Program-made: the position numbers and the translations under genes | Source: a virus | Lineage: Duplodnaviria > Caudoviricetes | Virus record (IMG/VR): IMGVR_UViG_3300027986_000017 | Location: 1-41,962 of that record | Direction: 5' to 3' (one strand) | Length of the DNA stretch: 41,962 nt | The notes under the pieces: generated by a model | The model's input: only the letters and a program-made list of their open reading frames with translations | Database searches by the model: none | Told to the model about the DNA's origin: nothing | Part shown: piece by piece, positions 51 to 40,937 of the stretch | Numbering within the stretch: position 1 is the stretch's first letter | How the letters are laid out: the number at the start of each line of letters is the position of its first letter

Positions 51-51
51 C

Positions 52-837: not shown

Positions 838-859
838 CCCCCCGGGATAAGGAGATTTT

Positions 860-1033: not shown

Positions 1034-1038
1034 CTCCC

Positions 1039-1503
1039 ATGAACGCGGTCGAAAAAGAGATCCCCGAAATGAAGCTCGCGAAGTTCGCCCGGCACCGCGC
1101 CGAGAGCTTCGCCGAGTCGCAGAAACAGCCCGGCGAAAAGATCGAGCACCGACTCACGAACAACCCGCCGCATGCGGACTCCGTTTATCCGAAGGCGAAG
1201 TACCACCCGCACAAGGCGCACATCGTCGTCCGGAACGCAGAGGACGAGAAGAAGCGATCGCCCGCCGAGGATGGCTGGGTCGACACGCCGGCAAAGCTCC
1301 CGCCTTCCGCGGTTCGCGACTTCTCGACCGAGGAAAAGCTCGCCATGCTCGACCAGATCTGCCAGCTCGTCGGCGTCGAGCCTGGCCAGAGTCCCGTCGA
1401 GATCCTCGAAGGCCTGCTCGCCGAGTACACGGATTTCGCGCACCAGCTCGCCGCGCTGAATAAGCCGGAGGACGCCGCGAAGAAAAAGGGGCGCCAGGGA
1501 TGA
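1039..1503 (+). CDS. Hypothetical phage protein (YPKAKYHP...GWVDTPA)
   Basis: GAGGAG RBS; tightly packed in the late operon. Confidence 0.75.
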   Translation: MNAVEKEIPEMKLAKFARHRAESFAESQKQPGEKIEHRLTNNPPHADSVYPKAKYHPHKAHIVVRNAEDEKKRSPAEDGWVDTPAKLPPSAVRDFSTEEKLAMLDQICQLVGVEPGQSPVEILEGLLAEYTDFAHQLAALNKPEDAAKKKGRQG

Positions 1504-2012
1504 AGGCCAAGCAATTCTTTCTCTGGCCCATGCTGGTGACCCTCGCCTGGTGCGCGGGTCTGCGGGCCCAAGGCACGGTCGTGCCTGGCACGCCCGACCG
1601 TGAGCAACGCTACCAGGCGATTCGCACCGATAGCAGCGCTACGTCCGAGGCGATTACGATCCAGCAGCCGGCGAGCCCCTCGGCCTCGATCCAGTTCGAG
1701 CTGGCGAGCCTGTGGTGCTCAGTCGCCTGCACGGCGACGCTCTCATGGAACGGAACCGCGGCGACGTCGACGTCGCTCGCTGTGACCTCGCTCAATGGCG
1801 CCGCAGCTCCAACTGCGACCGCGTGGCGTTCCTCAAACGTGGGCTCCGGAACCACCGGCAACGTATTCAACATCGCGGCCGGCACTCTCACCACGCTCGA
1901 CCTGTCGAAGTTCTATCTCGGCAAGGGCGGCGGAACGGGCCAGAATTTCACCATCTCCATCGCCTCGGCTTCTGGCAACTACCAGGTGATGGTCCAGTGG
2001 GTCGAAAAGTAA
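1500..2012 (+). CDS. Signal-peptide, Ser/Thr-rich beta-sandwich protein; putative virion decoration
   Basis: MKAKQFFLWPMLVTLAWCAGLRA-Q; ATGA overlap with upstream gene. Confidence 0.7.
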   Translation: MKAKQFFLWPMLVTLAWCAGLRAQGTVVPGTPDREQRYQAIRTDSSATSEAITIQQPASPSASIQFELASLWCSVACTATLSWNGTAATSTSLAVTSLNGAAAPTATAWRSSNVGSGTTGNVFNIAAGTLTTLDLSKFYLGKGGGTGQNFTISIASASGNYQVMVQWVEK

Positions 2013-2016
2013 CGCG

Positions 2017-3678
2017 ATGAAGTGGCTCGCCGGCATCGTCTTCGGCGCGATCGCGCTGGCGCAGCCGGCGACGGTCACGGTCACCGACACCCTGCGCCTG
2101 GCTAACGGCTCATTCTGCGGCGGCCAGATCACGGTGAGCTGGATCACGTTCACGTCGATGGACGGCGTCCGGATCCAGGGCGGCTCGCTCCCTGTGGCTG
2201 TGAATCCGGCGACGGGAGTCTTTACGGTCAACCTGGTGCCGACGAACACGGTATCGACGCCGGCGCAAGGGTTTTACACCATCCGCTACGACCTGCGGCC
2301 GACGATCTGCGCCGCGGCGACGTCGACCTGGAAGATCCCAGCAAGCGGCCCGGTCGGGCTTTCGGGAGTCGAGACGGTCTCCATTCCGCCGCCTCCGCAG
2401 ATCCCCGTGAATTCGCTCGCGAACCCGCCTGTACCTGGGACTTACGAGCTGTGCTTTGTGGGAGGCATCGTCCAGTGGGGCACCTGCGGCGGCGCGACGG
2501 TGATCGCGGGCACCACTCGCCAGATCAAAGCCGTGAGCGCCTCGGGTGTCGTCACGCTGTCGCTCCAGCCAGACCTACTGCTCGCCGGCCAGAGCGCGAA
2601 CGGCACCGACATGGTGAGTGGATCCAGATTCACCGACACGTCGCCCACTGGCAATTTCATGAACTTCAAGTCGCTCGCCGGCGCCTCGCTGTGGCAGGTC
2701 GACATCACCGGCACCTTACAGGCCGGGACAGTTCCCTTTGCGCGCTTCAGCGTCACGGCAGCCAACATCGTGAGCCTGTTTAGCGGGTGCTCGGGGACGC
2801 TGTTCATGGCAGCCGACGGAGCATGCCACTCCTCGGGAACCGGAACCGTAACGAGCTTCAGCGCGGGAACCGGCGCCCCATTCTTCACGACGAGCGTCGC
2901 GACCGCGACGTCGACGCCGGCTCTCAGCTTCAACATCACGAGTCAAAGTGCGAATTGCGTGTTCGCTGGTCCGACCACCGGCGCGGCCGCGGCTCCGACA
3001 TGCCGAGCGCTCGTCGGCGCCGATATGCCGAATCCGTCGTCGTCGACGCTGGGCGGAATCGAGTCTTTCGCGGCTGCCACCCATCAGTGGATCAACTCCA
3101 TCAGCACGCTGGGCGTGCCAGGATCTACGCAGCCGGCGTGCGCCGATCTCTCGGACTTCGCGAGCGGCTGCAATCACGTCGCGCCGGCGAATACGAGCTC
3201 GGTCTCACACCAGTGGTTCAACTCCTACACCCAGTCGACCGGCGTGTTCGGGCAGACGCAGCCGGCTTTCACGGATATCTCGGGAACCGCGACGGCCGCG
3301 CAGATTCCCTCGAACGTCAGGATCCGGGCGATCGGCGCCGGCTTCGACGGATCCGGATCCGCGCTTACTTCAGGCGCCACGGCGACGAGCTATTTCACGG
3401 TGCCCTTCGCCTGCACGATCTCGGCCTGGAACATCACGGTCGACACCGGGACCATCACCTTCGACGTCTGGAAGGTGGCCACCGGGACGGCGATCCCGAC
3501 CTCGGGTAACTCGATCACGGCCTCGGCGCTGCCGGCGATCTCCTCGGGCACGGCCGTGCATTCGACCACCTTAACCGGCTGGACGACAAGCGTCGCGGCC
3601 AACGATATTTTCGCGGTCAACATCAACACCGTGGCCAGCGCCACGAAAGCGAGCCTCATCGTCGAATGCGATCAGTAG
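2017..3678 (+). CDS. Tail/head fibre-like protein with Sec signal peptide
   Basis: MKWLAGIVFGAIALA-Q; Gly/Ser/Thr-rich; internal HQWxNS...QPA repeats; beta-rich C-terminal tip-like domain; many Cys. Confidence 0.7.
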   Translation: MKWLAGIVFGAIALAQPATVTVTDTLRLANGSFCGGQITVSWITFTSMDGVRIQGGSLPVAVNPATGVFTVNLVPTNTVSTPAQGFYTIRYDLRPTICAAATSTWKIPASGPVGLSGVETVSIPPPPQIPVNSLANPPVPGTYELCFVGGIVQWGTCGGATVIAGTTRQIKAVSASGVVTLSLQPDLLLAGQSANGTDMVSGSRFTDTSPTGNFMNFKSLAGASLWQVDITGTLQAGTVPFARFSVTAANIVSLFSGCSGTLFMAADGACHSSGTGTVTSFSAGTGAPFFTTSVATATSTPALSFNITSQSANCVFAGPTTGAAAAPTCRALVGADMPNPSSSTLGGIESFAAATHQWINSISTLGVPGSTQPACADLSDFASGCNHVAPANTSSVSHQWFNSYTQSTGVFGQTQPAFTDISGTATAAQIPSNVRIRAIGAGFDGSGSALTSGATATSYFTVPFACTISAWNITVDTGTITFDVWKVATGTAIPTSGNSITASALPAISSGTAVHSTTLTGWTTSVAANDIFAVNINTVASATKASLIVECDQ

Positions 3679-5087
3679 CCCTACTTCTCCTCCTCGCGAT
3701 CCGCTCGTTTGCGGCGATCGCCGCCGCCGGCGTCTTCGAAGTCCGGCCGACGAACGGCAGCGATTCGAACGGCGGCGGCTTCGTCACCGGCGCATCCGGG
3801 ACCGATTTCAGCCAGCAGAATTCCGCCCAGTACACCTTCACCGATCTCGCCTCCACCGTCGGAACGACTAACCCCTGCGTAGTTTCAAGCGCTTCGCACA
3901 ACTTCGTCGCGGCCGACGTCGGCAACGTAATGCAGATTTCCGCCGGCACGAACTGGACGACGGGTTTCTATCAGATCGTTTCCGTGGCGTCGAACAACGC
4001 CACGCTCGATCGAGCCTGCGGATCCACCGCTTCGCTTTCGAGTGGCACCTATGCCGTGGGCGGCGCGCTCAAGACCATCGGCAAAGCGAATGGCGGGATG
4101 GCGGCCGGAAACATCATGTGGGTGAAAGCCGAGTCGACAATTTCGATTTCGACGCTCATCACCATCAACTACCCGGCGTCGAGCTCGTCGCAGATGCCCG
4201 CGGTCAACGGATACACCTCGTCGCGCGGCGACAACGGCCAGGTCACGATCCAGGCCTCGGCCACGCTCTCAAACAATCCGATCATCGACTTCCAGACCAA
4301 TGGCGCCACTTTCGCGAATTTCATCCTCGACTGCAACAGCCAGGCCAACACGCGAGGAATCAACCTCGACGGCGGCAACATTCGAGGCTTCAACCTCTCG
4401 GTGAAAAACTGTCCGGCGGTCTATGGCGTGCAGTTCAACGGGACCGGGACGGCCTGCGAGCTGTGCTTCGTCACGACCCAGAGCGGCGGCCAGGCCTTCC
4501 TGTTCAATAACGGCTCTAACGACGTCTGCATTTTCTGCGTCGCCTACTCGAACAGCGTGCCGGGATTCGTGGCTTCGATCGGTGGCGTGACTTTTATCCA
4601 CTCGATCGCGGCGAACAACACCGGCGCGAGCTCGGACGGGTTTCAGCTGAACGGCTCGCAGAACGAGGCCGTGCTGTTCGGAATCATCAGCTACAAAAAC
4701 GGCCGCGATGGAGTGCGCTTCACCCAGGCCCAGCAGTACCCGATGACCTTCGTGAACTCGATCTTTTACGGCAACACCGGCAAGGACATCAACATGACCA
4801 CCGCGCAGATCCCGGCGGGGACGCAGTGGTTCGACTACAACGCCTACGAGAGCGGATCGACGACGAACGTCAACGCCGGCACTCACGACGTCACCTTGAC
4901 CGCGGATCCCTTCGTGAACGGGGCCTCGAACAACTTCGCGCTGAATGGCACCTCCGGCGGCGGCGCCGCGCTCAAAGCGGCCGGCTTCCCCGGCACGCTC
5001 TCGATCGGTGGAACCGGATCCGCTGCGATCGGCGTGCTCCAGCCAGCCGGAAGCGGCGGCCAGAAAGGGTTTCCCATCGTGCAGTGA
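3666..5087 (+). CDS. Parallel beta-helix (pectin-lyase-like) tailspike-like protein with signal peptide
   Basis: MRSVALLLLLAIRSFA-A; Asn-ladder repeats (NNTGASSDGF, KNGRDGV, NSIFYGN). Confidence 0.65.
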   Translation: MRSVALLLLLAIRSFAAIAAAGVFEVRPTNGSDSNGGGFVTGASGTDFSQQNSAQYTFTDLASTVGTTNPCVVSSASHNFVAADVGNVMQISAGTNWTTGFYQIVSVASNNATLDRACGSTASLSSGTYAVGGALKTIGKANGGMAAGNIMWVKAESTISISTLITINYPASSSSQMPAVNGYTSSRGDNGQVTIQASATLSNNPIIDFQTNGATFANFILDCNSQANTRGINLDGGNIRGFNLSVKNCPAVYGVQFNGTGTACELCFVTTQSGGQAFLFNNGSNDVCIFCVAYSNSVPGFVASIGGVTFIHSIAANNTGASSDGFQLNGSQNEAVLFGIISYKNGRDGVRFTQAQQYPMTFVNSIFYGNTGKDINMTTAQIPAGTQWFDYNAYESGSTTNVNAGTHDVTLTADPFVNGASNNFALNGTSGGGAALKAAGFPGTLSIGGTGSAAIGVLQPAGSGGQKGFPIVQ

Positions 5088-5119: not shown

Positions 5120-5860
5120 ATGTCACTCACCGGCGGCGCACTCCTCAACGCAGCAGTCGAACGGCTCGGCCGGCTCTATCCTGGCGAGTCTCTGAACTCC
5201 ACCGAACAGACCGATTTCCTCGCCGTCGCGAATTCGATGATCGACAACTGGTCGCTCGAGCGGCTCAACATCCCCGTGATCGTCGTCGCGAGCGCTGCGC
5301 TCTCGAACGGCGTGGCAGCCTACACCTTCGGCGCCGGCGGGACGTTCGGAACCACGCGGTTTCTGCGGCTCGATTCGTGCGGGATCCTGGTCCCGAGCGC
5401 GGCGATCGCCGGGACCTTCATCCGCGTGCCCTGCGAAATCGTCTCCCAGCAGAAATTCCAGTCGTATCCGGAAAAGAGCGCTGCGGTTCAGATCCCGCAG
5501 ATGTTCTATTACGACTTCCAGTTCCCTGTCGCGACCGGGAACCTCGCGCCGACGCCGGCATTCACTGGAACCGCGACGAAGCTCGAGCTCGGCGGCTGGC
5601 AGGCCCTGGCCAACTTCCCCGACCTGGTCACCACGGTAAACACGCCGCAGGGCTACGACGAGGCCCTCATCACCAACCTGGCGATCCGCCTGGCGCCGCT
5701 GCTCACCGTGCAGGCCTCGGCCGAGCTGGTCGAGGCAGCCAAGGAATCGAAGGCCGCGCTGCGCGCGATGAACGCGTCGAACTTCGGCAACCCGGCGACA
5801 CCGCCGCCCTCCGGACCGACCGACGCGATCCCGCCGCCCCAGGCGCCGCCGGCCAGGTAA
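5120..5860 (+). CDS. Second gp4-like head-tail adaptor paralog
   Basis: LGRLYPGESL..ANSMIDNWS and PQGYDEALITNLAIRLAP parallel the motifs of 52..837. Confidence 0.75.
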   Translation: MSLTGGALLNAAVERLGRLYPGESLNSTEQTDFLAVANSMIDNWSLERLNIPVIVVASAALSNGVAAYTFGAGGTFGTTRFLRLDSCGILVPSAAIAGTFIRVPCEIVSQQKFQSYPEKSAAVQIPQMFYYDFQFPVATGNLAPTPAFTGTATKLELGGWQALANFPDLVTTVNTPQGYDEALITNLAIRLAPLLTVQASAELVEAAKESKAALRAMNASNFGNPATPPPSGPTDAIPPPQAPPAR

Positions 5861-6463: not shown

Positions 6464-6711
6464 TGCAGCGAGTCGAAGTCAGCCCCGATCGCCTCGGCAG
6501 CCAATTCTTCAAGGCCTACCAGTACGACGAGCTGGGCCAGACTCTCGAGATCGAATTCGCCGACGGCCGGAGATGCGTTCACTCCCGCGTGCCGGCCGAC
6601 CTCTATCGGGATTTCCACGAATCGCGCGAGCCTGGCCGCTTCTGGGCCGCCGCGATCCGGGACGCCTCTAAAGACGGCCAACCCAGCTACCCGATGCGGA
6701 TGGTGAGCTGA
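6463..6711 (+). CDS. KTSC domain protein
   Basis: YD..QTLEIEF.DG....RVP..LY..F....PGRF pattern of KTSC. Confidence 0.8.
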   Translation: MQRVEVSPDRLGSQFFKAYQYDELGQTLEIEFADGRRCVHSRVPADLYRDFHESREPGRFWAAAIRDASKDGQPSYPMRMVS

Positions 6712-8243
6712 TGCCAGGCCTCTCGTCGTTCGGATTCGTCGGGCCGGCCTACACGACGCAAAACCCCTCGGTCGATCCCGAGGACCTCTGCAACCTCTAC
6801 CCGGAGCTCGTCGAGTCCGGCAACGGCGTTTCCAAGGGCACCAAGTACGCGCTGTTCAACCGGCCGGGCCTGACCCTGGTCGGGAACCTGGGTGCCTCAG
6901 GGCGCGCGCTGTGGGGCGGAAACAACCGGCTTTTCGCTGTGGTGGGCGGCAACCTGGTGGAAGTCAACTCGAGCGGGACGATCATCCACACCTACACCAT
7001 CGCCGGCTCCGGACCCGCACAGATCGTTTTCGTTCCCTCCGGACCTGGTCTTTCCGGCGCGACGTCGGGCGCGCTGCTCGTCTGGGACGGCTCAAACGGC
7101 GCCTCGGCAAATATCTGGTACGTCGACGGATCCACGTCGACGCCGCCGGCCGTCATCTCGGGCGTGGGTGTCGGGTGCATCGACGGGTACGGCGTGGTGC
7201 TCCGGCCGCCGATCCCGCCTGGCTCGAACTCCGACCCGATCCCGATCTTCACGATCGACGGCACGCAGTTCAACCTGTCCAAGATTTTCGACGGCTCGAC
7301 CTGGGACCCGCTGCAGTTCGCGATCAAGACTGGGGCGCCCGACCAGCTGCAGATGGTTCACACGCCTGGCTCGAACACCGGACCAGGTCCAGAGGAGCTC
7401 TGGTTACTCGCGAAGCGCTCAATCGAGGTGTGGTACGACACCGGCGGAAGCGCGCTGAATCCATTCCCCTTCCAGCGCGTGCCCGGCGCCTTCATCTCGC
7501 AAGGCTGTTACGCCGCGCTGAGCGTGGTCGCGATCAAGGGGTCGCTCTACTGGCTCGGCGGCGACGATCGCGGCGTGGGCGTCGTCTACAGGGCCGAGGG
7601 ATACATCCCGAAGCGCATCTCGACTCACGCGATCGAGAACATCCTCCGCTCCTGGGCGATTTCGGGCTCGGATATCTCGGACGCGATCGGCTACAGCTAC
7701 CAGGAAAACGGGCACGACTTTTACGTGCTCACCTCCCCGACTGCGAACCAGACCGTCGTCTACGACGCCACAGAAAACCTGTGGCACCGGCGGGCCTCGG
7801 GAGGAACCACGGCAGCGCAGTTGGGCCTGTACCACGCCTGGGCTTTCGGAAAGCACTACCTGCTCGACAGCGCGGGGAACCTCTACACGTCGAGCATCAA
7901 CGTCTTCCAGGATGCCGGCGCCGCGATCACGTTCTCGCGCACGACGCCGATCATCTCGGAAGAGAACCGCTTCACGACGCACATCGAGCTCGAGCTCCAC
8001 TACGGCGGCCCGTACAACCAGACGCGCAACTGGTCGCTCGCGATCTCAAACGACGGCGGCCAGAACTTCGGGACTCCGCTCACTCTTCAGACCGGGCCAG
8101 GCGGCAGCTCGCCCGATCGCGCGGTTTTCCGCCGCATGGGAATGTCACGCAAGCGGGCTTACAAGCTCAGCACCACCGACAATCTGGCTCAGTGCTGGAT
8201 CGACGGCTACGCGCGGTACAAGAACGCAACGGCGGGGATCTAA
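6711..8243 (+). CDS. Tail nozzle / DNA stabilization protein, P22 gp10-like
   Basis: NLYPE start, SIEVWYDTG, PFPFQR, RISTHAIE, YQENGHDFYVL, VYDA..LWH, SNDGGQNFG, FRRMG motifs. Confidence 0.85.
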   Translation: MPGLSSFGFVGPAYTTQNPSVDPEDLCNLYPELVESGNGVSKGTKYALFNRPGLTLVGNLGASGRALWGGNNRLFAVVGGNLVEVNSSGTIIHTYTIAGSGPAQIVFVPSGPGLSGATSGALLVWDGSNGASANIWYVDGSTSTPPAVISGVGVGCIDGYGVVLRPPIPPGSNSDPIPIFTIDGTQFNLSKIFDGSTWDPLQFAIKTGAPDQLQMVHTPGSNTGPGPEELWLLAKRSIEVWYDTGGSALNPFPFQRVPGAFISQGCYAALSVVAIKGSLYWLGGDDRGVGVVYRAEGYIPKRISTHAIENILRSWAISGSDISDAIGYSYQENGHDFYVLTSPTANQTVVYDATENLWHRRASGGTTAAQLGLYHAWAFGKHYLLDSAGNLYTSSINVFQDAGAAITFSRTTPIISEENRFTTHIELELHYGGPYNQTRNWSLAISNDGGQNFGTPLTLQTGPGGSSPDRAVFRRMGMSRKRAYKLSTTDNLAQCWIDGYARYKNATAGI

Positions 8244-8450
8244 ATGCTCCGGCGCATGTTTCTGCTCGCGCTGGGCGGATCCGCCGCGGCCGCCGACGTC
8301 GACCAGCTGGCAGACCTGATGAACGCCTTCGCGCGCGTCTACAACCAATTTGCCGAGCAGGAACGTCGCGGAATCTTCGACGTGAAGCTCGCCCGCGAGC
8401 TTTCGCGGCGCTGGCGTGACGTCGAACGCTCGGGAGACTGGCCGCGATGA
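8244..8450 (+). CDS. Small protein with twin-arginine-like leader
   Basis: MLRRMFLLALGGSAAAA; abuts both neighbours. Confidence 0.6.
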   Translation: MLRRMFLLALGGSAAAADVDQLADLMNAFARVYNQFAEQERRGIFDVKLARELSRRWRDVERSGDWPR

Positions 8451-10003
8451 GCACCACGCCGCAGCTGATCTTTCAGATCCGGCCGGAAGGCTACGCGACG
8501 CTCACGATCGAGGCGCTGCAGTCGCTCACGCCGCAGGCCTCCGGCGGACCGACCGTTCAGCTCATCGATCCACCGATCCCGCAGCCGATCCTGGATGCCC
8601 AGCAGCTCGGGGATCCGCAGCAGCCGCCGCCCGACATAGTGACGTTGCTCAAGAACGCGCAAGCCACGCGTTTTTCAAAGCCGTGGATTCAGTGGTTCTG
8701 GCTGCTGAAGCGCTTTCTGTCTCAATCGCCTGGCGCATCGAACCAGCTCACGATCCTGGCGCCCTCGATTGACGAGACCGACGTCGCCTGGTACGCCACC
8801 GGCACCACCGACAATCACACGGATCCCATCACCTTCAACGCGACCCTCACCGGCCTGTCACGCTTCGGCGTACAAGTTACGGGGGGATCCGCCTACACCA
8901 ACGGCGACACGCTCACGATCTCGAGCTCGAACGGGCAAGGGCGGCCGGCGAAGGGGACCGCGGTCGTCACCGCCGGCGTGGTCACCGGCTTTACTCTCAC
9001 CGTCCAGGGCTACAACCTGCGCGCCCCTCTGACCGTCACCGGCGGCACGGGAACGGGCGCCGCGGCGACCCTCGGCCGGCAGTGGGCAGTCGGGGACTTC
9101 GTCGTCTGGAACGATCCGACGATCGTAAGCGGCGCCTACAGCTACGAAATCGACCAGATCACCAAGATTGTGCCCACCGACGACACGCACTTTTCCGTGA
9201 CTCTTGCAAGGCACGCGAGCGGCGGCGCGTCGGGCTTTGCCCAGTACGGCTCGAAGCTCAACGCGCACACAGCGCAGAACTTCTACCGGCTCATCAACAA
9301 AGAATTTCTCGCGAACCTGGACGTCTCCGCGGGCCCGCAGCTGCTGAAGTTTCTCTGGGATAACATGGCCGTCGCGGCGCTCTCGATCAACGGCGCCGGC
9401 GTCTCGCTGCTGCAGAACCTGGCGCCGCCTATCAACGCGACGCGATCGACCCCGCCTGCGCCTGGCCTCCGGACGATGAGCGGCGCCGCCTACATTTCGC
9501 TCAACATCTCGGGGTCGCTCGTCCCTGGCGGCCAGACCAACAAGGCCGACGCGTCGCAGGCCTGGGAAACGATCCGCACGGCTTACGCCAAGGTCGACAC
9601 GGCGCCGACGGGCGCGACGTCCTACACCGGGCCGAACGGAACCGTCGACGCCAACGCCGCAATTGTGGTGTACCTGTGCTGGGTGAGCCTCGCAAATGTG
9701 GTGCGGCTGATCGACATCCTGGTGATCGACGCCGGCAACTTCGCGAGCTTCTCGGCGGCGAATGCGCCCGATGGCCGGCAGATGCCGTTCCTCACGTTTT
9801 CGAACAAGGCGATCCAGTGGCCGCCCAACATGCTGCCGCTGTGCACCACAGCACTCGACGCCAACGGAAATCTGCTGCCGACGATGGGCTTCACCTGGAC
9901 CGACCTCCAGCCGTTCTCGCCGGACGGCTACATCCAGGCCGTCGTCGTCCAGGTGGGCGCGACGATCGAGGGGTCTAATTTGCGCGTGGTGCTTCAGACC
10001 TGA
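8447..10003 (+). CDS. Tail needle/fibre-like protein, no signal peptide
   Basis: Follows the nozzle gene; FSKPWIQWF motif; GGSAYT/QGYN..P..TGGTGTGAAAT beta repeats. Confidence 0.6.
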   Translation: MSTTPQLIFQIRPEGYATLTIEALQSLTPQASGGPTVQLIDPPIPQPILDAQQLGDPQQPPPDIVTLLKNAQATRFSKPWIQWFWLLKRFLSQSPGASNQLTILAPSIDETDVAWYATGTTDNHTDPITFNATLTGLSRFGVQVTGGSAYTNGDTLTISSSNGQGRPAKGTAVVTAGVVTGFTLTVQGYNLRAPLTVTGGTGTGAAATLGRQWAVGDFVVWNDPTIVSGAYSYEIDQITKIVPTDDTHFSVTLARHASGGASGFAQYGSKLNAHTAQNFYRLINKEFLANLDVSAGPQLLKFLWDNMAVAALSINGAGVSLLQNLAPPINATRSTPPAPGLRTMSGAAYISLNISGSLVPGGQTNKADASQAWETIRTAYAKVDTAPTGATSYTGPNGTVDANAAIVVYLCWVSLANVVRLIDILVIDAGNFASFSAANAPDGRQMPFLTFSNKAIQWPPNMLPLCTTALDANGNLLPTMGFTWTDLQPFSPDGYIQAVVVQVGATIEGSNLRVVLQT

Positions 10004-10012
10004 GGTGACTCT

Positions 10013-11134
10013 ATGGCTTTAAGATACGCGGAATCCTTCGGGCGATACGGCCCGGTCGGAAACGAAGCATTTCTCACGGACTACTGGACCGCGGCCGGCG
10101 GCGTGGTCCACCTGGTCACCGGCGACACCACCAGGGGAAATTTCCTGGGCCTCGGAGTCGAGCTGGTAGCGGGCGGATTGAACAGCGGCGCGCTCAGCAA
10201 GACGCTCACACACAAAGGCGGCTGGACGATGGGAGCGCGGATCTATTTCGGCCAGGCCGGCGGCTCGATCCAGGCGGCCTCGCTCATCAACGGGTTCCAC
10301 GCCGGGACGCTACTGGTGACCTGCCAGCTCAACGCCGACGGAACATTCTCGATCGCGTGCGGGTCAAACGTCGCGCCCGGCAGCGGATCGAGCGGAGGCA
10401 CGTCGAGCTTTTCGGCCCATGCTGGGCGAAAGTACTACGTCGAGCTGCAGGTCACCGGGATCGCGCTCGGTTCAAACGTGGCAGTCACCGCGACGATCCG
10501 CGTCAACGGCGTGCAGGTCGCACAGGGAACCACCAACACCGGCGTGAGCACGACGCAGCTGCTTCTTCAGACCGCGACGATCAACCGATGGGAGATCGCC
10601 GGACCGGCCGCCACGTCGTCGCATGTGTTTTCGGATATTTACATTGTCGACAGCGACGGGACCGTGCTCGTCAACGGCGTAGCGAAGGCAACTCCGCTCA
10701 GCACCTGGATGGGCGACATCAAGATTCAGCCGATCTTCCCCGCCAGCGACACGGCCACGATCCAGTGGACGCCGAGCCCGGGCGCGGCGCACTGGAACAT
10801 GTTGAACGAAGTGCCGCCCGACGAAGATACGACCTACGTGAAAAGCTCGACCGTGGGCCAGCAGGACATCTACAACTGGCAATCGATTCCGGGATTCACG
10901 GGCACCATCCAGGGCGTCGTGCTGAGCTTCCGCGCGCGCAAAGATGACGAAGGCACCAAGCAGTTCAAGCAAGTCGTCGGCGCCGGCGGCGCGTCGCAGT
11001 CGAGCGACACGTTTTCGGTGGGCGACGAGTACATCTACTACCACTTCGCCTATGACCTGGATCCCGCCACGTTCGCGCTGTGGACCCAGGCCGGGTTTAA
11101 CGGGACGCCCTTCGGCGTGAACCTGGTCGCCTGA
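10013..11134 (+). CDS. Tail-associated beta-sandwich (lectin-like) protein
   Basis: GAGG RBS; Gly/Thr-rich; YYVEL and SDIYI..D motifs; located in tail module. Confidence 0.6.
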   Translation: MALRYAESFGRYGPVGNEAFLTDYWTAAGGVVHLVTGDTTRGNFLGLGVELVAGGLNSGALSKTLTHKGGWTMGARIYFGQAGGSIQAASLINGFHAGTLLVTCQLNADGTFSIACGSNVAPGSGSSGGTSSFSAHAGRKYYVELQVTGIALGSNVAVTATIRVNGVQVAQGTTNTGVSTTQLLLQTATINRWEIAGPAATSSHVFSDIYIVDSDGTVLVNGVAKATPLSTWMGDIKIQPIFPASDTATIQWTPSPGAAHWNMLNEVPPDEDTTYVKSSTVGQQDIYNWQSIPGFTGTIQGVVLSFRARKDDEGTKQFKQVVGAGGASQSSDTFSVGDEYIYYHFAYDLDPATFALWTQAGFNGTPFGVNLVA

Positions 11135-12075
11135 TGGCCATCGTCTACCAGAATTTCGACGCCCTGACTGTCGGGGCGACCTCGGTGCCCGGCTTCATCG
11201 TCGGAGGCAGCGGATCCGTCGTCACGCCTGGCGTCCATCTGGGCATCAACGGAAACGCCGGCAACGCCTGGCAGATGCGCGAAGGCTCGATTCTGTTCGA
11301 CGGTTTCTCGGCGCCGATCCCCGCGGTGAATGCGTGGTTTTCCTGGAAGCACACGGCCTCGATTGCCTGCGGCCGCATGGTCGCCTTCGGTCAGTGGGAC
11401 GCGGTCGACCAAAACGCCTTCGTGATCTTCGGCTGGCTCCAGCAGGAATCCGATTACAGCTTCTCGATCTATGCGTCGGGCACCCGCGGCAGCTTCGGGA
11501 CGGGTTTGATTGACAACACCGGCTTGCACGCTCCTGGGGATGGCGGCGTACTGCAGCAGCGCGCCGATCAGCGCTTCGGAATCTTTTTCGAGGTGGATGT
11601 CTCGCTCGGCGCATCCGTCATCGGCGGCATCAACTTCGTCACGATCGGGTTCAGTGTGTACGCCGACGGCGAGCTGATTCTCTCGGGCTCGCTCGCAACG
11701 GACCAGGTGGTCGGTGCCACTTTGGGAACTCACGGCGGCACGATCGCGAGCGATTGCAACTGGGTGCGCTGGGAAGCCGGCGGCGCGCTGAACTCGGCCG
11801 AAATCGACGAGGTGACGATCGACATTCCTCCGATGACGTCCCCGACCTATCCCAACCCCGGAAGCCCGAAAGCCCGCGTGACTCAGGGCGTCATCGAAGC
11901 CAACATCCTGCCCTCCACCGCGAACGTGCGGGCGACGCAGGGCGTGATCGAGGCGAACATTCTGCCGTCGACGGCCAGCATCCGGATTACGCAAGCCGTG
12001 ATCGAGCTGCTGCTCGGAAGCCGGCCAGGCGCGGGGCCTGAGTACATCAAGCGCCGGCTCCCCGGCAGTTCCTGA
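11134..12075 (+). CDS. Tail-associated protein with C-terminal 18-aa repeats
   Basis: TGATG coupling to upstream gene; RxTQGVIEANILPSTA repeated about 2.5 times. Confidence 0.65.
   Translation: MAIVYQNFDALTVGATSVPGFIVGGSGSVVTPGVHLGINGNAGNAWQMREGSILFDGFSAPIPAVNAWFSWKHTASIACGRMVAFGQWDAVDQNAFVIFGWLQQESDYSFSIYASGTRGSFGTGLIDNTGLHAPGDGGVLQQRADQRFGIFFEVDVSLGASVIGGINFVTIGFSVYADGELILSGSLATDQVVGATLGTHGGTIASDCNWVRWEAGGALNSAEIDEVTIDIPPMTSPTYPNPGSPKARVTQGVIEANILPSTANVRATQGVIEANILPSTASIRITQAVIELLLGSRPGAGPEYIKRRLPGSS
11875..12006 (+). repeat. 54-nt coding tandem repeat, about 2.5 units
   Basis: RVTQGVIEANILPSTANV / RATQGVIEANILPSTASI / RITQAVIE, with synonymous divergence. Confidence 0.9.
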
Positions 12076-28492: not shown

Positions 28493-28891
28493 ATGATTCT
28501 CACCGCGGATCAGATTTACGCGCTCGCCTGCCAGGCGGGCTTTCCGCCACACGTCGCCGTGACCATGACCGCGATCGCGCTGCGCGAAAGCGCGGGCGAC
28601 CCCGCGGCCTTCAACGGCAACGAAAAAACCGGCGATCGCTCCTATGGCCTCTGGCAGATCAACATGTTCGGGTCGCTCGCCGAGCCGCGCAAGAAGATCT
28701 TCGACATCACCTCGGAAAACGAGCTGCTCGATCCCATGGTGAACGCGCGCGCCGCGTTCCGGCTGTGGGGCGGGAAAAACAAGAATCTTTCGATCGCCTG
28801 GTACATCGACGTCGACCACGGCGACTACCAAGCCAGATACGAGAAACACCTGCCGGCGGCGCAGGCCGCGGCACTCGCAGCAAAAACGTAA
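28493..28891 (+). CDS. Endolysin, lytic transglycosylase (SLT/lysozyme-like)
   Basis: AIALRESAG (catalytic Glu), SYGLWQIN, LLDPMVNARAA. Confidence 0.85.
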   Translation: MILTADQIYALACQAGFPPHVAVTMTAIALRESAGDPAAFNGNEKTGDRSYGLWQINMFGSLAEPRKKIFDITSENELLDPMVNARAAFRLWGGKNKNLSIAWYIDVDHGDYQARYEKHLPAAQAAALAAKT

Positions 28892-28903: not shown

Positions 28904-29458
28904 ATGATTCCAGCTTCAGGATCCGTCCAAGGCCCGCAGCTCGAAGCCACGGCCGCGGCCGCCCTCCAGGCAGCCTCAACCCTCGCAGGCCTCGCCAACG
29001 CGGCGCCGGCGCCGACCGGCCCCAACCCGATGCTCGTCGTCCCGTCGACGCCTCTGCGGCCGCCCGTGGGCGTGCAGGAAATCGGCAACATGGGCAACGG
29101 CAACTATCTGACGCTCGTCTCGCAGCTCGACTGGCGCCTGTTCAGCTCGAAGGCCGACGCCGACGCTCTGCTCGCCGTGCTTGCGTCGCAGCTCGGGATC
29201 TCGGCGACCGTGATCGAGGACGGCGAGGAAGGGTCGCGCTTTGAATTCGCCGACGCGCAGTCTGGTCCGCGCGTTTACGCGATCATCGGCACCGACTCGC
29301 AGGGGAATTTCTTCTACGAAGTGGCCGGCGACATTCTCGCGCGGCGCCAGCGGCCCGACTTAGGCGTCGACCAGGGCGCACCCTACAAGCCCGGCGACGT
29401 TCTCACCATGTCGCTCGAAGTCGGCTACGGCTACGCCGAATTCTTCTGGAAGAAGTGA
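28904..29458 (+). CDS. Hypothetical protein
   Basis: AAGGAG RBS. Confidence 0.7.
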   Translation: MIPASGSVQGPQLEATAAAALQAASTLAGLANAAPAPTGPNPMLVVPSTPLRPPVGVQEIGNMGNGNYLTLVSQLDWRLFSSKADADALLAVLASQLGISATVIEDGEEGSRFEFADAQSGPRVYAIIGTDSQGNFFYEVAGDILARRQRPDLGVDQGAPYKPGDVLTMSLEVGYGYAEFFWKK

Positions 29459-29904
29459 TGCGCGCCGCGGTGCTGTTCCTTGCGATCGCGGTCTCGGCGA
29501 TCGCGCAGAAATGCGACGCCTCGCTGTGGCAGCACGTCTACCACCCCGAGCGCCTTCAGGTGCTGAAAAAGTGCGTCGTCGTGACGGGCGTCATCGTTCA
29601 CTCGAAGGAAGAGAAAGACGGCGACCGTCACATCCAACTGAAGCTCGATCCGCAGTTCTCAGACATGCTCAACGCGCGCAACAAGGCCGCGCAGGGCGGG
29701 AACCTGGTGATCGAGCCGATCTGCGTCGGCGCCGTCACGCAGTCCGACGCGGTCACCGCGTGCAAGGGCTTCCATAGCAAAATTGTGATACCCAAGCCTG
29801 GCCAGCGCGTGCGCGTGACCGGCTCTTTCGTGCTCGACATCGAGAACCCTGGACACGGTTGGCAGGAAATTCATCCGGTAACATCGATCGAGGTGATCCC
29901 ATGA
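29455..29904 (+). CDS. Secreted OB-fold-like protein
   Basis: Signal peptide AIA-Q; DGDRHIQL, VRVTGSFVLD, WQEIHPV; four Cys. Confidence 0.7.
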   Translation: MMRAAVLFLAIAVSAIAQKCDASLWQHVYHPERLQVLKKCVVVTGVIVHSKEEKDGDRHIQLKLDPQFSDMLNARNKAAQGGNLVIEPICVGAVTQSDAVTACKGFHSKIVIPKPGQRVRVTGSFVLDIENPGHGWQEIHPVTSIEVIP

Positions 29905-30371
29905 AACTCATCCTGCTTGCAGCTTTCGCGGCGCTCGGGGTCGCGCAGACGCGTCTCGAAGTCGCGCCTCAATGCCCTGGCACGAATCAGATCATCGTAA
30001 TCATCGCTTTCCAGGCGGGCGGAATCACGGTTCCTCTGCCGATCTGCGTCGCACTCGACCCGGCCAGTTTTTCGCTCCAGACTCAGGTCAGCGCCAACGT
30101 CGCGACCGGGACGCTGTCCGTCAAGCCGACAGCCGGCGCGACGACGCCGGCGTTTGTAGACGGAGAGATTCCGTCGGGTGCGATCGATGGCACGAATGTG
30201 GCCTTCACTCTTGCCGCGGCTCCGAATCCGGCGGGTTCACTGCACTTCTTTCGCAACGGGTTAAGGCTCAGTCCTGGTTCTGATTTCACCCTCGCGGGCG
30301 CCGCCGTGACGTTCCTTCCTGGTGCGGCTCCACAGCCAGGCGACATCCTGCGAGTCGACTACCGCAAATGA
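29901..30371 (+). CDS. Signal-peptide protein with fibre-associated beta domain
   Basis: MKLILLAAFAALGVA-Q; EIPSGAIDGTN..FTL...FRNGLRL..GSDFT....VTF...APQPGD motif familiar from phage fibre proteins. Confidence 0.7.
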   Translation: MKLILLAAFAALGVAQTRLEVAPQCPGTNQIIVIIAFQAGGITVPLPICVALDPASFSLQTQVSANVATGTLSVKPTAGATTPAFVDGEIPSGAIDGTNVAFTLAAAPNPAGSLHFFRNGLRLSPGSDFTLAGAAVTFLPGAAPQPGDILRVDYRK

Positions 30372-30811
30372 TCGCGCGCGCCATCTTGTGGCTCTGCCTC
30401 GCGGCGAGCTCCGGCTACGCGCAGACCCAGGTCCGGCCGGATCAGATCCGCAACACCAGCCAGGTGTCGCTGCGCGTGCTCTACCTGCAAAACCAGACCG
30501 ACCTGACTTCCTCGCCCTGGATCGCTTTCGGGCCTCCCGGAACGCAGACGCGCGTCTCCGGCTCGCAGCTGAACCTGGTCCCGGTGCTGACCCCGGATGG
30601 AACGCTGGGCGCCATCTTCACGGCCGCGATCACGAATCGCCTCGGGTGCGACGCGGCCTGGTGCTCGCACCAACCCGCCGAGCCGCTGCTCTACTGGCCC
30701 AACGACCCGACGCAACCGCCTCCCGATTCGACTTTCGGAAACTGCTGGCACATCACCCAGCTCTGGCGCGGCTCCTGGTTCCCGACCGATTACTGGGCCT
30801 GCGATTGGTAG
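30368..30811 (+). CDS. Signal-peptide protein with Cys/Trp-rich C-terminus
   Basis: MIARAILWLCLAASSGYA-Q; ATGA overlap. Confidence 0.65.
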   Translation: MIARAILWLCLAASSGYAQTQVRPDQIRNTSQVSLRVLYLQNQTDLTSSPWIAFGPPGTQTRVSGSQLNLVPVLTPDGTLGAIFTAAITNRLGCDAAWCSHQPAEPLLYWPNDPTQPPPDSTFGNCWHITQLWRGSWFPTDYWACDW

Positions 30812-34647: not shown

Positions 34648-36720
34648 ATGCCCTACGACGTCGACAAGCTCGTCGCAACCGCTCGGGCGCGCCTGGCATC
34701 TGCGCGCGCGGCCGAACAGGAGATCCGCGACGAAGCGGCGATCGACAAACGCTTCCTGATCGGCAAGCAGTGGGACGAGAAGGTCAGAAACGAGCGCATC
34801 GCCGGCGGCAAAGCCGCGCTGACCATCAACCGGCTCGGCGCCTTCCGCAACCAGGTCGTAAACGACATCCGCCAGAACAACCCGCAGGCGCGCGTCTCAC
34901 CGCGGCGCGACGGGACCAAGGAAACCGCGGAAGTCTATGAAGGCCTGATCCGCGCGATCCAGTACGACTCCGACTCGCAGATCGCTTTCACCGAGGCCGC
35001 GAAATACGCGATCGGATCGAGCTACGGCGTGTTCCAGCTCGTCGCCGAGCTGGTCGACGAGGAAACCGGCGAGCACGATCTCAAAATCGAACCGGTCTAC
35101 GATCCGGACACCGTGTTTTTCGATAACCACGCGATGAAGCCCGACCGGAGCGATTCGCGCTGGGCGATGAAGCTCGTCCCGATGAGCCGGATCGAATTCA
35201 TGGAGCGGTGGCCCAACGCGGAGGCGACCGGCCAGAACTTCGCAAGCGGCGAAACCGAGTGGATGGATCCGCGCGGCGATGGCGCTCACGTTCTCGTCGC
35301 GGAGTACTTCTGCATCGAAGAGGCCGGCAGCTCGAACGTCGCGCTCGGCGCCGATCTCGAAGGCGAGGACGCCAAACCGGCGCGCAAGCGCAAGGAAAAG
35401 GGCAAAGAGCTCGTCAAGCACATCATCAATGGCGTCGAGGAGCTCGAGCCGCCCACGCTGCTGCCTGGCACGCGCGTGCCGCTGTTCCCGGTCTACGGCG
35501 ATGAAATGTGGGTCGACGGCAAGCGCAACATCGGCTCGCTGATCCGCGACTCGCGCGACCTGAACGTTCTCTACAACTGGGAATCGACCAACGAAGCCGA
35601 AACGCTGGCGATGAACAGCAAAAACCCGTATCTCGCGACGCCGGCGATGATCCAGGGCCACGAAAAAGAGTGGAAGCAGATGAACACGACGAACCGCAAC
35701 TACGTCCTATTCAATCCGGATCCGCTCATTCAGGGCGGCAAGCCCTTCCGCGACTGGGCCGAGCCGCCGATCGCGGCCATCTCCCAGGCTAAGGCGCAGA
35801 CCGCCAACGAAATGCGCGACGTGATCGGCCTGCACGATCCGTCGCTCGGAAAGCAGCAGTACGCGGGCCAAAGCGGCCGCGCGATCGCGCAGCTTCGAAG
35901 TGAAGGCGACCTCGCCACCTACCACTACACCGACAACCTGTCGCGGGCGATTCGCTCCATGTGTCACTGCCTGCTCGAGTGGATCCCGTGGTACTACGAC
36001 ACCGAGCGCGAAATCGTGATCCTCGGCGAGGATCTGGCCGAGAAGATCGTGCGCGTGAACACCGAGCAGCCGCACACAGACGAAGAGACCGGCAAGACCT
36101 ATCACCACCAGCTGGGCGTCGGGAAGTATTCCGTGGTGGTCAAGATCGGGCCGAGCTACGACACCGAGCGCGAAGAAGAAGACGCCTTCTGGGAAGCGAC
36201 GGTCAAGGCGGCGCCCGAGCTGATGATGGTTTTCGGCGATCAGTATTTCGCGCACAAGGACGTCGCCGGCGCCGACATCGCGGCCGACCGGATGAAGCGG
36301 TTCATCGCGATGAAGACGCCAGGCCTGATCGAGGACGACAAGGGTGCGAGCGTTCCGCCCCAGGTCCAGGCGCAGATGGCCCAGATGCAGCAGCAGCTGC
36401 AGCAGCTGCAGCAGCAACTTCAGCAGGCGATGCTGGTCATCAAAACGAAGCAGATCGAGTCGCAGGGCCGCGTCCAGGTCGAGCAGATCAAGCAGCACGG
36501 CACGCTGATGAAGGCCGCGCTCGAAACGCAGACTGCGGCGCATTCCGACGTCCTGGCGCATAAGCGCGACATGGTCAAGATGCTCCTCTCCGAGCTGATG
36601 GACGCGGCCGAGCACATGGGCCAGATGGATCACGAACACGCCCTCATCGACCACCAGGCGGCCGTGGCGCCGCCGCCGATGGCGCCGGCAGCCGGCGACC
36701 AGGGAGCACCTCAGCAATGA
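34648..36720 (+). CDS. Portal protein, P22 gp1-like
   Basis: GKQW...LTINRL, SGRAI, DTEREIVILGED, GKYSVVV..GPSY.T.REE; Gln-rich barrel coiled coil. Confidence 0.92.
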   Translation: MPYDVDKLVATARARLASARAAEQEIRDEAAIDKRFLIGKQWDEKVRNERIAGGKAALTINRLGAFRNQVVNDIRQNNPQARVSPRRDGTKETAEVYEGLIRAIQYDSDSQIAFTEAAKYAIGSSYGVFQLVAELVDEETGEHDLKIEPVYDPDTVFFDNHAMKPDRSDSRWAMKLVPMSRIEFMERWPNAEATGQNFASGETEWMDPRGDGAHVLVAEYFCIEEAGSSNVALGADLEGEDAKPARKRKEKGKELVKHIINGVEELEPPTLLPGTRVPLFPVYGDEMWVDGKRNIGSLIRDSRDLNVLYNWESTNEAETLAMNSKNPYLATPAMIQGHEKEWKQMNTTNRNYVLFNPDPLIQGGKPFRDWAEPPIAAISQAKAQTANEMRDVIGLHDPSLGKQQYAGQSGRAIAQLRSEGDLATYHYTDNLSRAIRSMCHCLLEWIPWYYDTEREIVILGEDLAEKIVRVNTEQPHTDEETGKTYHHQLGVGKYSVVVKIGPSYDTEREEEDAFWEATVKAAPELMMVFGDQYFAHKDVAGADIAADRMKRFIAMKTPGLIEDDKGASVPPQVQAQMAQMQQQLQQLQQQLQQAMLVIKTKQIESQGRVQVEQIKQHGTLMKAALETQTAAHSDVLAHKRDMVKMLLSELMDAAEHMGQMDHEHALIDHQAAVAPPPMAPAAGDQGAPQQ

Positions 36721-39908: not shown

Positions 39909-40937
39909 ATGACCAAACTTCGCTCGATTCTCTTCTTGCTGGGCCTGCCCATCGTGGCTCTCGCCCAGTCCAACACGCTCACGACCACCACGCTGAGCGC
40001 CGCGATCGCGCAGCCCACCGCGTCGACGCCTCCGGCGCAGTACATCACCGTGGCCTCGGCCACCGGCATCAACGTGCCTTCCATCACCAACGGAACGCAG
40101 GGGACGATGCTGTTTGTCGACCGCGAAGCGATCCGCGTGATCGCCCAGGTCGGATCGACGACCACCTTCCAGGTGCTCCGAGGCCAGAACGGCACTCGAG
40201 CCGTGGGCCACATCTCCGGCGCCTCCGTGCTGATCGGAAACCCGCAATGGTTCAAGCAGTCGGATCCGCTCGGCACGTGCGCGATCGGGACCGAGTACAG
40301 CTCGCCGTGGATCAACACACTCACCGGCGGCATCTGGGTCTGCTCGAACAACCAATACGTGCTCGCCAACCAGTCGGTTTTCATCCCGCCTTCGGCGTGC
40401 TGGATGACCCCGACCACCACGGCATTCACGACCGGCCCGGCTCTCACGCGGACCGGAGCTGGCTCTCAGGTGCTCTCGGGAACGACCAACACCACGGCCG
40501 GCACGATCGCTGTTAACTGCTCGCTCGCCGACATTCAGCTCGGCTTTGCGCCGTCCTTCGGCGTGATGCTCCAGGCTGTCTCGCTTCTCTATGGCGTGCA
40601 GACCACGGCGCTTTCCTCGATCGCGACTGCGATCGTCGACGGCATTACCTACCCCGCCTCCACCGCGGCCGGCGCGGCGGCTGGAGCGACCGTGGCGGCG
40701 ATCGGCGGCACGCTCACGGTGACCCCGACCACGCTGCAGCTGGCGACCACGACGGCGGGCCAGTGCTACGACGAGAAGGTCTCCTTCGGTACTCCGTTCT
40801 ACCTGAACTCGGACACCTTCCAGCCGACGCTTGAGCAGGTGTTCACCACCGCGGGCACCAGCGCGACCACCCTGCAGGTGTGCGGCGTGATTCTTTACTT
40901 CGGTTTGAATCCGCCCGAAATTCTCCCGGTTCCTTAA
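39909..40937 (+). CDS. Signal-peptide, Thr-rich protein in the capsid-decoration position
   Basis: MTKLRSILFLLGLPIVALA-Q; TTTLSAAI...VDRE...V.RGQNGTRAVGH.SGA domain; six Cys. Confidence 0.75.
   Translation: MTKLRSILFLLGLPIVALAQSNTLTTTTLSAAIAQPTASTPPAQYITVASATGINVPSITNGTQGTMLFVDREAIRVIAQVGSTTTFQVLRGQNGTRAVGHISGASVLIGNPQWFKQSDPLGTCAIGTEYSSPWINTLTGGIWVCSNNQYVLANQSVFIPPSACWMTPTTTAFTTGPALTRTGAGSQVLSGTTNTTAGTIAVNCSLADIQLGFAPSFGVMLQAVSLLYGVQTTALSSIATAIVDGITYPASTAAGAAAGATVAAIGGTLTVTPTTLQLATTTAGQCYDEKVSFGTPFYLNSDTFQPTLEQVFTTAGTSATTLQVCGVILYFGLNPPEILPVP

What the first reader, a model, noticed from the sequence alone, without database searches (positions are those of the whole stretch)
1500..5087. Fibre, spike and decoration genes carry Sec signal peptides: possible periplasm-matured virion appendages
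Seen: late-operon proteins at 1500, 2017, 3666, 29455, 29901, 30368 and 39909 all start with a basic-hydrophobic-AxA leader, six of seven followed by Gln, and are Cys-rich. Portal, coat, adaptors, nozzle and the 8447-12075 proteins lack leaders. Known: tailed-phage virions assemble in the cytoplasm and their fibres normally lack signal peptides; disulfides form in the periplasm. Inference: this phage exports fibre, beta-helix spike and capsid-decoration subunits for oxidative folding and attaches them during or after lysis, or uses them as lysogen surface proteins. This is my best candidate for an undescribed system.
Basis: partly seen in the sequence, partly recalled or inferred. Interest (0 to 1): 0.88.

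Follow-up and report, generated by a model that had tools for sequence, protein, structure and literature searches.

The report
Phage fibres carrying host export signals
This uncultured short-tailed soil phage starts its fibre-, spike- and capsid-accessory-type proteins with predicted bacterial secretion signals that its core particle proteins lack, so these outer parts likely fold with disulfide bonds outside the cytoplasm and would join the particle when the cell bursts, an unusual route for a tailed phage.

Summary
Observation confirmed. The window is a whole ~41-kb P22-like podophage genome. All seven named late genes start with Sec/SPI-type leaders, six with Gln at +1. Portal, coat, adaptors, nozzle and ejection proteins have none.

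The leaders are conserved as a property, not as a sequence (87 of 100 homologues of the post-coat protein). All seven mature chains have even Cys counts, and Cys pairs co-vary.

Three related phages carry the post-coat gene without a leader. Theirs begins at the predicted mature N-terminus and lacks the otherwise invariant Cys pair.

The mature domains resemble virion parts: a tail/capsid beta-barrel, a fibre-attachment-like sandwich and a beta-helix.

Export is very likely (~0.9). Attachment to particles at lysis is inferred (~0.6), because the phage also has leaderless tail-region genes and a recombinase. Support from cultured phages: Cellulophaga phi18:3 has three MS-annotated structural proteins with such leaders, and the acidobacterial podophage Tunturi 2 has five leader-bearing tail-module genes.

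My paper searches found no description of this route. This scan has reported the same pattern many times on other phage DNA. The host, probably Acidobacteria, is not established.

The parts
39909..40937 (+). Post-coat accessory protein, 342 aa: 19-aa leader, +1 Gln, virion-type beta-barrel (22-114), Cys124/Cys145 linker, CBM-like jelly roll (153-337)
1500..2012 (+). 170-aa leader-bearing protein (23-aa leader, +1 Gln, Cys73/Cys77); homologue with a leader in L008
2017..3678 (+). Tail-fibre-like protein, 553 aa: 15-aa leader, +1 Gln, N-terminal transthyretin-like sandwich, mosaic shaft, C-terminal phrog_35197 domain, 12 Cys
3666..5087 (+). Right-handed beta-helix spike-like protein, 473 aa, ~16-aa leader without Gln, 8 Cys; leaderless homologues occur in other phages' tail modules
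29455..29904 (+). 149-aa leader-bearing protein in the lysis module, +1 Gln, 4 Cys, no family hit
29901..30371 (+). 156-aa leader-bearing protein, +1 Gln, 2 Cys, no family hit; no related locus found in viral contigs
30368..30811 (+). 147-aa leader-bearing protein, +1 Gln, 4 mature Cys, no family hit
34648..36720 (+). P22-like portal, leaderless (context)
   Evidence: PF16510 E 3e-135
38596..39846 (+). P22-like coat protein, leaderless (context)
   Evidence: PF11651 E 8e-32
40987..41772 (+). Adaptor-like protein 1, leaderless; second copy at 22-837 in the terminal overlap (context)
5120..5860 (+). Head-tail adaptor 2 (phrog_637 Ad3), leaderless (context)
6711..8243 (+). Nozzle / head closure (phrog_578 Hc3), leaderless (context)
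8447..12075 (+). Three leaderless tail-region proteins (518, 373, 313 aa); candidate cytoplasmically assembled tail or receptor-binding parts
28493..28891 (+). SLT-type endolysin, leaderless; holin-like ORF at 30998-31162 (context for release at lysis)

Best explanation
The phage likely sends its outer accessory proteins (the post-coat protein, the fibre, the beta-helix spike and small partners) through the host Sec pathway, where they are predicted to lose their leaders and form disulfides in the periplasm, and they would then clip onto heads and tails built in the cytoplasm when lysis mixes the two compartments. Shown in the sequence: leaders on these genes and not on core virion genes, +1 Gln, even and co-varying cysteines, and leaderless orthologues that start at the mature end. 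Inferred with high confidence (~0.9): Sec export, signal peptidase I cleavage and disulfide formation. Inferred more weakly: pyroglutamate capping of the +1 Gln (by analogy with Bacteroidetes) and binding to the particle at or after lysis through the N-terminal barrel or sandwich domains, with the variable distal domains binding or cutting host surface glycans.
For: (1) Leaders: 87 of 100 homologues of 39909 (75 with Gln, query included). Also 116 of 133 further hits of a profile search, though that profile includes leader columns and so favours them. The family is large: 2874 clusters at 50% identity with E<=0.001. Fibre homologues: 76 of 120, and 19 of 28 among those sharing the N-terminal domain. 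Leader length and sequence vary while Gln20 is nearly invariant. (2) Disulfide pattern: 7 of 7 mature chains have even Cys counts. 82 of 87 leader-bearing 39909 homologues are even. Among fibre homologues 69 of 76 leader-bearing are even, against 20 of 44 leaderless (Fisher p 1e-7, overstated because the sequences are related). In 33 aligned homologues, Cys124/145 are invariant, and 164/204, 286/325 and 45/86 occur only together (27, 21 and 5 rows). (3) Natural control: the post-coat gene has a leader in 9 of 12 distinct loci. The 3 leaderless copies (L057, L070, L071) start at the mature N-terminus and lack Cys124/145, which the 8 leader-bearing copies checked all have. (4) Virion-type folds. 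The 39909 barrel matches the VP1 capsid (Z 10.4, rmsd 2.6, 79 residues), the JBD30 baseplate (Z 9.7), the Chi tail tip (Z 9.1; sequence profile E 1.7e-5) and the GP4 portal-tail complex (Z 9.0). The fibre N-domain matches the A-1(L) neck fibre (Z 9.4, rmsd 2.4, 88 residues), the Bxb1 and Ur-lambda tail tips and the DEV collar; its C-domain matches phage 7-7-1 tail fibres (Z 8.4). The spike family occurs leaderless in other phages' tail modules (8 of 14 loci). (5) The genes lie between coat, adaptors and nozzle with gaps of -13 to 62 nt, and the order is kept in L002 and L009. (6) Cultured phages: phi18:3 gp085-087, annotated as structural from MS/MS, have leaders with +1 Gln (3 of 12 such proteins in the fetched part). 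Tunturi 2, a plaque-forming acidobacterial podophage with no annotated integrase, has leaders on gp12, 13, 14, 16 and 17. GP4 (13 genes) and KPP25 (18 genes) gave none. (7) No alternative ATG/GTG/TTG start preserves the first strand of 39909 or 2017; the first in-frame GTG is at Val48 and Val40 (sequence). (8) None of the seven except 29901 (19-residue mean 2.1) has a second hydrophobic stretch suggesting a membrane anchor.
Against: No proteomics, structure or expression data exist for this phage, and leaders were called by my own rule, not SignalP. The phage has three leaderless tail-region genes (8447, 10013, 11134) that could supply host recognition without any export, and Tunturi 2 has a leaderless 124-aa gene annotated as tail fibre. 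It encodes a serine recombinase, and the close relative's proteins lie on a 319-kb contig, so a lysogenic role is possible. The fibre's N-domain fold is equally shared with secreted non-phage proteins (carboxypeptidase D Z 9.3, pilins), and that model is poor overall (mean pLDDT 47.7). In the spike family, leaderless copies are also Cys-rich (5-17) and some leader-bearing copies are odd, so the Cys argument does not hold there. Leaderless crAss001 tail proteins form disulfides (PMC10172136, passages), so disulfides alone do not need export. The phi18:3 proteins showed no similarity to the window's proteins, are Cys-poor (0, 1, 3), and could have co-purified. 29455, 29901 and 30368 lie beside the lysis genes and may have another role.
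Confidence: 0.62

Rival explanations
1. The proteins are exported but act from the cell or as free proteins, not on the particle: receptor masking or superinfection exclusion, a lysogen adhesin, or a soluble glycan-cutting enzyme that frees progeny from capsule or biofilm.
For: Serine recombinase and a probable prophage relative; leaderless tail-region candidates exist; the spike is most like secreted Pel9A-type lyases by structure; three of the seven genes are in the lysis module; P. gingivalis prophage Q-rule proteins were interpreted as outer-membrane modifiers (PMC10367356, passages).
Against: The genes occupy fixed slots among virion genes that leaderless orthologues fill in other phages. 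They keep N-terminal virion-type domains while the distal domains are swapped. No promoter-like site above chance was found in the late region. Tunturi 2 has the pattern without an annotated integrase. No membrane anchor is evident.
Confidence: 0.24
2. The leaders do not cause full export. They tether nascent fibres to the inner membrane or act as cytoplasmic propeptides, and the particle picks the proteins up at the inner face before lysis.
For: It avoids the dilution problem of post-lysis binding. N-terminal trimming of a virion fibre protein without a signal peptide is reported for A1002 gp41 (PMC13730344 section 11; its KPP25 counterpart has no leader).
Against: The leaders have the canonical tripartite shape and +1 Gln typical of periplasmic signal peptidase I products (PMC10653852, passages). 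Gain of the leader goes with gain of a Cys pair, which points to an oxidising compartment.
Confidence: 0.1
3. The leaders are an artefact of wrong start calls or chance hydrophobic N-termini.
For: The leader call is heuristic; several genes lack a strong Shine-Dalgarno sequence.
Against: False-positive rate about 4%; conservation in hundreds of homologues; starts overlap upstream stop codons; no suitable downstream start.
Confidence: 0.03

Closest known systems
Cellulophaga phage phi18:3 gp085-gp087 (KC821620; Pachyviridae)
   Same: Tailed-phage proteins annotated as structural from MS/MS that begin with Sec-type leaders and +1 Gln.
   Different: Bacteroidota host, no detected similarity to the window's proteins, few cysteines. 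The record does not remark on the leaders; I did not read the source paper.
Tunturiibacter phage Tunturi 2 (PP885685; PMC11924767, section 18 and passages read)
   Same: Cultured acidobacterial podophage with five consecutive or near-consecutive tail-module genes carrying leaders, four with even Cys counts (20, 10, 20, 34). A few homologues of the window's fibre hit its gp13 and gp12.
   Different: Different head lineage (not among the 40 coat hits). The paper's main text does not mention signal peptides or virion mass spectrometry; supplements not seen.
Q-rule proteins of Porphyromonas gingivalis prophages (PMC10367356; PMC10653852; passages read)
   Same: Phage genes with host-style SPI leaders and +1 Gln.
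   Different: Described as five genes of unknown function that may modify the outer membrane, not as fibres, spikes or decoration proteins.
Bcep22/GP4-, A1002- and P22-type podophage accessory parts (fibres, collars, cement)
   Same: P22-like portal and coat, two adaptor-like genes, nozzle; the 39909 barrel matches a GP4 portal-tail chain. Late, spontaneous binding of P22 tailspike and of Dec/Hoc/Soc to finished particles is recalled knowledge, not checked here.
   Different: Their fibres are leaderless and nearly Cys-free (GP4: 0 and 1 Cys) and are made in the cytoplasm.
Filamentous (Ff) phage pIII and pVIII (recalled)
   Same: Virion proteins that use Sec leaders; pIII has periplasmic disulfides.
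   Different: They stay membrane-anchored and assemble during non-lytic extrusion. Here the particle is a P22-like tailed virion and the exported proteins appear soluble.

Membership tests
P22-like short-tailed dsDNA phage | P22-type portal, coat and scaffold | tested here: met
   PF16510 E 3e-135, PF11651 E 8e-32, phrog_8865
P22-like short-tailed dsDNA phage | Adaptor, nozzle and ejection proteins; no tube or tape-measure gene | tested here: met
   phrog_637, phrog_578, phrog_598; no tube or tape-measure hit among 32 late ORFs
Sec/SPI substrate | Basic n-region, hydrophobic h-region, small residues at -3/-1 | tested here: met
   Own rule, 7 of 7, false positives about 4%; SignalP not run
Sec/SPI substrate | Actual export and cleavage | not testable with these tools
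   Needs fractionation or N-terminal proteomics
Q-rule (pyroglutamate) substrates | Gln at +1 | tested here: met
   6 of 7 here; 75 of 87 leader-bearing homologues of 39909
Q-rule (pyroglutamate) substrates | Host has a periplasmic glutaminyl cyclase | not testable with these tools
   Host unknown; the rule is described for Bacteroidetes only; no paper found for Acidobacteria
Phage tail fibre | N-terminal particle-attachment domain, mosaic shaft, distal domain (2017) | tested here: inconclusive
   Fold ties between phage neck/tip fibres and secreted proteins; mosaic homology; low-confidence model
Phage tail fibre | Trimer bound to the tail | not tested
   No oligomer model was run for 2017
Tailspike | Right-handed beta-helix (3666) | tested here: met
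   ESM Atlas feature score 0.98; TM 0.53-0.65 to beta-helix clusters
Tailspike | Virion-bound trimer with glycanase activity | not testable with these tools
   Needs virion structure and enzyme assay
Capsid decoration/cement protein | Gene directly after coat; virion-surface fold (39909) | tested here: met
   Post-coat position in 12 distinct loci; barrel matches
Capsid decoration/cement protein | Binds the capsid | not testable with these tools
   Needs a virion structure or binding assay
Filamentous-phage-type Sec virion proteins | Membrane-anchored subunits assembled during extrusion of an ssDNA filament | tested here: not met
   Genome encodes terminase, portal, HK97-type coat and endolysin; no clear C-terminal anchor

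The most novel reading that the evidence does not exclude
A two-compartment assembly pathway for tailed phages: head and tail core are built in the cytoplasm, while all host-recognition and capsid-surface appendages are exported, disulfide-bonded and pyroglutamate-capped in the periplasm and are loaded only at lysis. The switch is made gene by gene by adding a host leader and a Cys pair to an ordinary cytoplasmic virion gene. Free appendages released from one cell could then equip particles from another cell, allowing host-range mixing without recombination.
Probability: 0.4. Interest if true: 0.92.

Novelty: new variant of a known kind. Interest (0 to 1): 0.77.

Why it matters
Tailed-phage assembly is taken to be wholly cytoplasmic (established knowledge). 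Export of fibres and spikes would add a second compartment and make lysis an assembly step. It would make infectivity depend on host Sec, signal peptidase and disulfide machinery, and it would explain disulfide-rich appendages suited to acidic, protease-rich soils. It would also mean annotation pipelines misfile such receptor-binding proteins as morons or host genes. It is directly testable in cultured phages (Tunturi 2, phi18:3). This window adds a clean natural control: the same post-coat gene exists with leader plus Cys pair and without either.

Tried and rejected
1. Complex prediction of coat (A1) with the 39909 barrel (residues 20-152) gave no answer, score 0.00 against a mark of 0.32; it is not counted either way.
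2. A1002 gp41, reported to lack about 30 N-terminal residues in virions, looked like a published precedent. The same-length gene of KPP25 has no leader, so I rejected it; the A1002 sequence itself was not seen.
3. Host identification failed. Two other named fibre hits are Steroidobacteraceae and Pseudomonadota. The Acidobacteria guess rests on this, on Tunturi 2 and on earlier scan notes.
4. tblastn of 39909, 2017 and 3666 against 50,697 phage records found nothing. Pfam and NCBIfam gave no hit for any of the seven.
5. Foldseek on 39909 gave only generic jelly-roll matches. The ESM Atlas gave no named family for it.
6. The coat tree (quick method, 67 rows) puts 6 of 7 leader-bearing rows in one set with long branches. 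It cannot tell single from repeated gain. Loci with under 1.5 kb downstream, duplicates and loci without an intact coat ORF (L008, L066 and others) were left out.
7. No lipobox was found by a regex in 27400-37500, so no outer spanin was recognised.
8. No RNA holder listed.
9. Promoter and terminator scans were at chance level.
10. Paper searches listed no title or abstract start describing Sec-exported fibres, spikes or decoration proteins of tailed phages. The library lacks most subscription journals, most hits were seen as listings only, and no supplements were read.
Full report
What the window is. The 41,962 bases are one whole phage contig. Its ends overlap by about 974 nt at 96.6% identity, and it is rated 100% complete. 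It encodes terminase subunits, a P22-like portal, scaffold and coat, two adaptor-like proteins, a nozzle and an ejection protein, plus an SLT endolysin, a serine recombinase and a sigma-like protein. The best cultured coat match is 36% identical (Xanthomonas phage PBR31). The best run holding it is a soil metagenome, which may be its source, and two mine-metagenome runs of another study also hold it. The host is not established.

Checking the observation. The seven ORFs are present and start with tripartite leaders, six with Gln at +1. With a fixed rule of my own, 11 of 36 window genes score positive and no core virion gene does. The rule fires on 3 of 81 antisense ORFs and 5 of 120 coat homologues. 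Cysteine content is only moderately high (1.3-3.4%), but every mature chain has an even number.

Conservation. For the post-coat gene 39909, 87 of 100 homologues have a leader, 75 with Gln, and 82 of the 87 have even Cys counts. The leaders differ in length and sequence while the Gln is nearly invariant. A profile search found 2874 clusters; 116 of 133 newly listed hits have leaders, but the profile favours these. In 33 aligned homologues the cysteines come and go strictly in pairs. For the fibre 2017, 76 of 120 hits have leaders, and even Cys counts are found in 69 of 76 with a leader against 20 of 44 without. These sequences are related, so the p-values overstate the case. Relatives L002 and L009 (coat 85% and 62% identical) keep the order coat, leader gene, adaptor, leader fibre, leader spike, adaptor, nozzle. 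Among 66 loci with an intact coat and at least 1.5 kb downstream, 57 have no homologue of 39909 after the coat. Of those 57 only L076 has convincing large leader-bearing genes; a hit in L043 looks like a mis-start. The trait is therefore confined to some lineages.

Natural control. In 12 distinct loci the gene after the coat is a 39909 homologue. Nine have a leader (window, L002, L007, L008, L009, L013, L021, L066, L086). Three do not (L057, L070, L071); these begin at the predicted mature N-terminus and lack Cys124 and Cys145, which the eight leader-bearing copies checked all have (L066 was not aligned there). The spike 3666 shows the same split: a leader in the window, L002, L097 (=L009), L099, L101 and L108, and none in L008, L098, L100, L102, L103, L104, L107 and L109, some of which lie just after a tape-measure-like gene (L105 and L106 were cut by contig ends). 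In that family the cysteine count does not follow the leader. So these are ordinary cytoplasmic virion-module genes in some phages and export-tagged genes in others.

What the mature parts look like. The AlphaFold model of 39909 (mean pLDDT 80) has a barrel at residues 22-114 whose best matches are all virion proteins (VP1 capsid, JBD30 baseplate, Chi tail tip, GP4 portal-tail, Mystique tail tube; Z 8.5-10.4). It also has a carbohydrate-binding-module-like jelly roll at 153-337 (Z 10.0) that is replaced in many homologues. The fibre model is poor overall (47.7). Its N-domain matches phage neck and tail-tip fibre domains and, equally well, secreted proteins; its C-domain matches phage 7-7-1 tail fibres. 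3666 is a right-handed beta-helix whose nearest clusters are viral. The three genes beside the lysis module have no family hit, and their role is the least certain.

Cultured comparisons, taken as leads from earlier scan notes and checked here. Tunturi 2 is a podovirus plaquing on Tunturiibacter (PMC11924767 section 18) with no annotated integrase. It has leaders on gp12, gp13 (fibre), gp14 (pectin lyase), gp16 and gp17, and none on portal or capsid (33 CDS tested). Cellulophaga phi18:3 has leaders with +1 Gln on 3 of 12 proteins annotated as structural from MS/MS in the part fetched. GP4 and KPP25, proteobacterial podophages, gave no leader call in 13 and 18 late genes. P. gingivalis prophages encode Q-rule proteins of unknown function, and +1 Gln cyclisation stabilises exported proteins in Bacteroidetes.

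Mechanism. The best reading is Sec export, signal peptidase I cleavage, disulfide formation and probable pyroglutamate capping in the periplasm, followed by binding to finished particles when holin and endolysin open the cell. That accessory proteins can bind finished particles spontaneously is recalled from P22 tailspike and T4 Hoc/Soc work and was not checked here. I put export at about 0.9 and the whole route at 0.62. The main rival is export for a non-virion role (0.24): this phage has a recombinase and three leaderless tail-region genes, and the spike resembles secreted lyases. Disulfides alone do not prove export, since leaderless crAss001 tail proteins have them.

Novelty. My nine topic searches of the paper library did not list a description of this route in tailed phages; coverage is limited to open-licence papers and I read no supplements. 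This scan has noted the same pattern on other DNA: 48 findings held my search words, with more. These are unchecked AI notes and are not counted as evidence. The parts are known kinds (virion domains, Sec leaders), so I class it as a new variant. If virion attachment at lysis is shown, it would be a new assembly route. What this window adds is the paired leader-plus-cysteine gain in the post-coat gene.

Noticed in passing
window 50-1037 and about 40990-41962: The terminal overlap is only 96.6% identical (941 of 974), with amino-acid differences in the adaptor gene: two strain variants were probably merged in the assembly.
   Followed up: partly
window 11134-12075: The leaderless 313-aa protein ends in three ~18-aa repeats with an R-x-T-Q-x-V-I-E core. 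They could be docking strands like the 'rope' on which A1002/GP4 fibre dimers bind by beta-augmentation, and so a candidate dock for exported subunits. Untested.
   Followed up: no
window 31596-32009: Acb2/Tad1 hairpin domain (PF24729, E 1.2e-7) between the terminase genes: likely an anti-defence nucleotide sponge.
   Followed up: no
window 36717-36968: Leader-bearing 83-aa coiled-coil protein after the portal with weak FtsB/Lpp-like hits below cut-off; possible spanin-like part. No lipobox found in the region.
   Followed up: partly
window 8244-8450, 36980-37348 and 16575-16949 (-): Further probable exported proteins: two with twin-arginine-like N-termini and one minus-strand ORF with a leader ending in Ala-Gln.
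   Followed up: no
window 5867-6711: A leaderless 198-aa protein with 10 Cys (likely metal-binding) and a KTSC-domain protein (PF13619, E 9e-13) are inserted between adaptor 2 and nozzle; L002 lacks both.
   Followed up: no
window 18800-19465 and 26385-27385: Resolvase-type serine recombinase, phage sigma-70 region 2 protein and Fis-type HTH; no tyrosine integrase or clear repressor among the 19 early ORFs scanned.
   Followed up: partly
L076 12944-17739; L071 15687-16907: Distant relatives (coat 32%) with other leader-bearing tail-region genes: 1213 and 388 aa in L076; 406 aa with +1 Gln in L071, whose post-coat gene is leaderless.
   Followed up: partly
L094 10168-10683 (-), KPP25: The 171-aa fibre-dimer gene, whose A1002 counterpart lacks about 30 N-terminal residues in virions, has no signal peptide; its trimming must have another cause.
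   Followed up: yes
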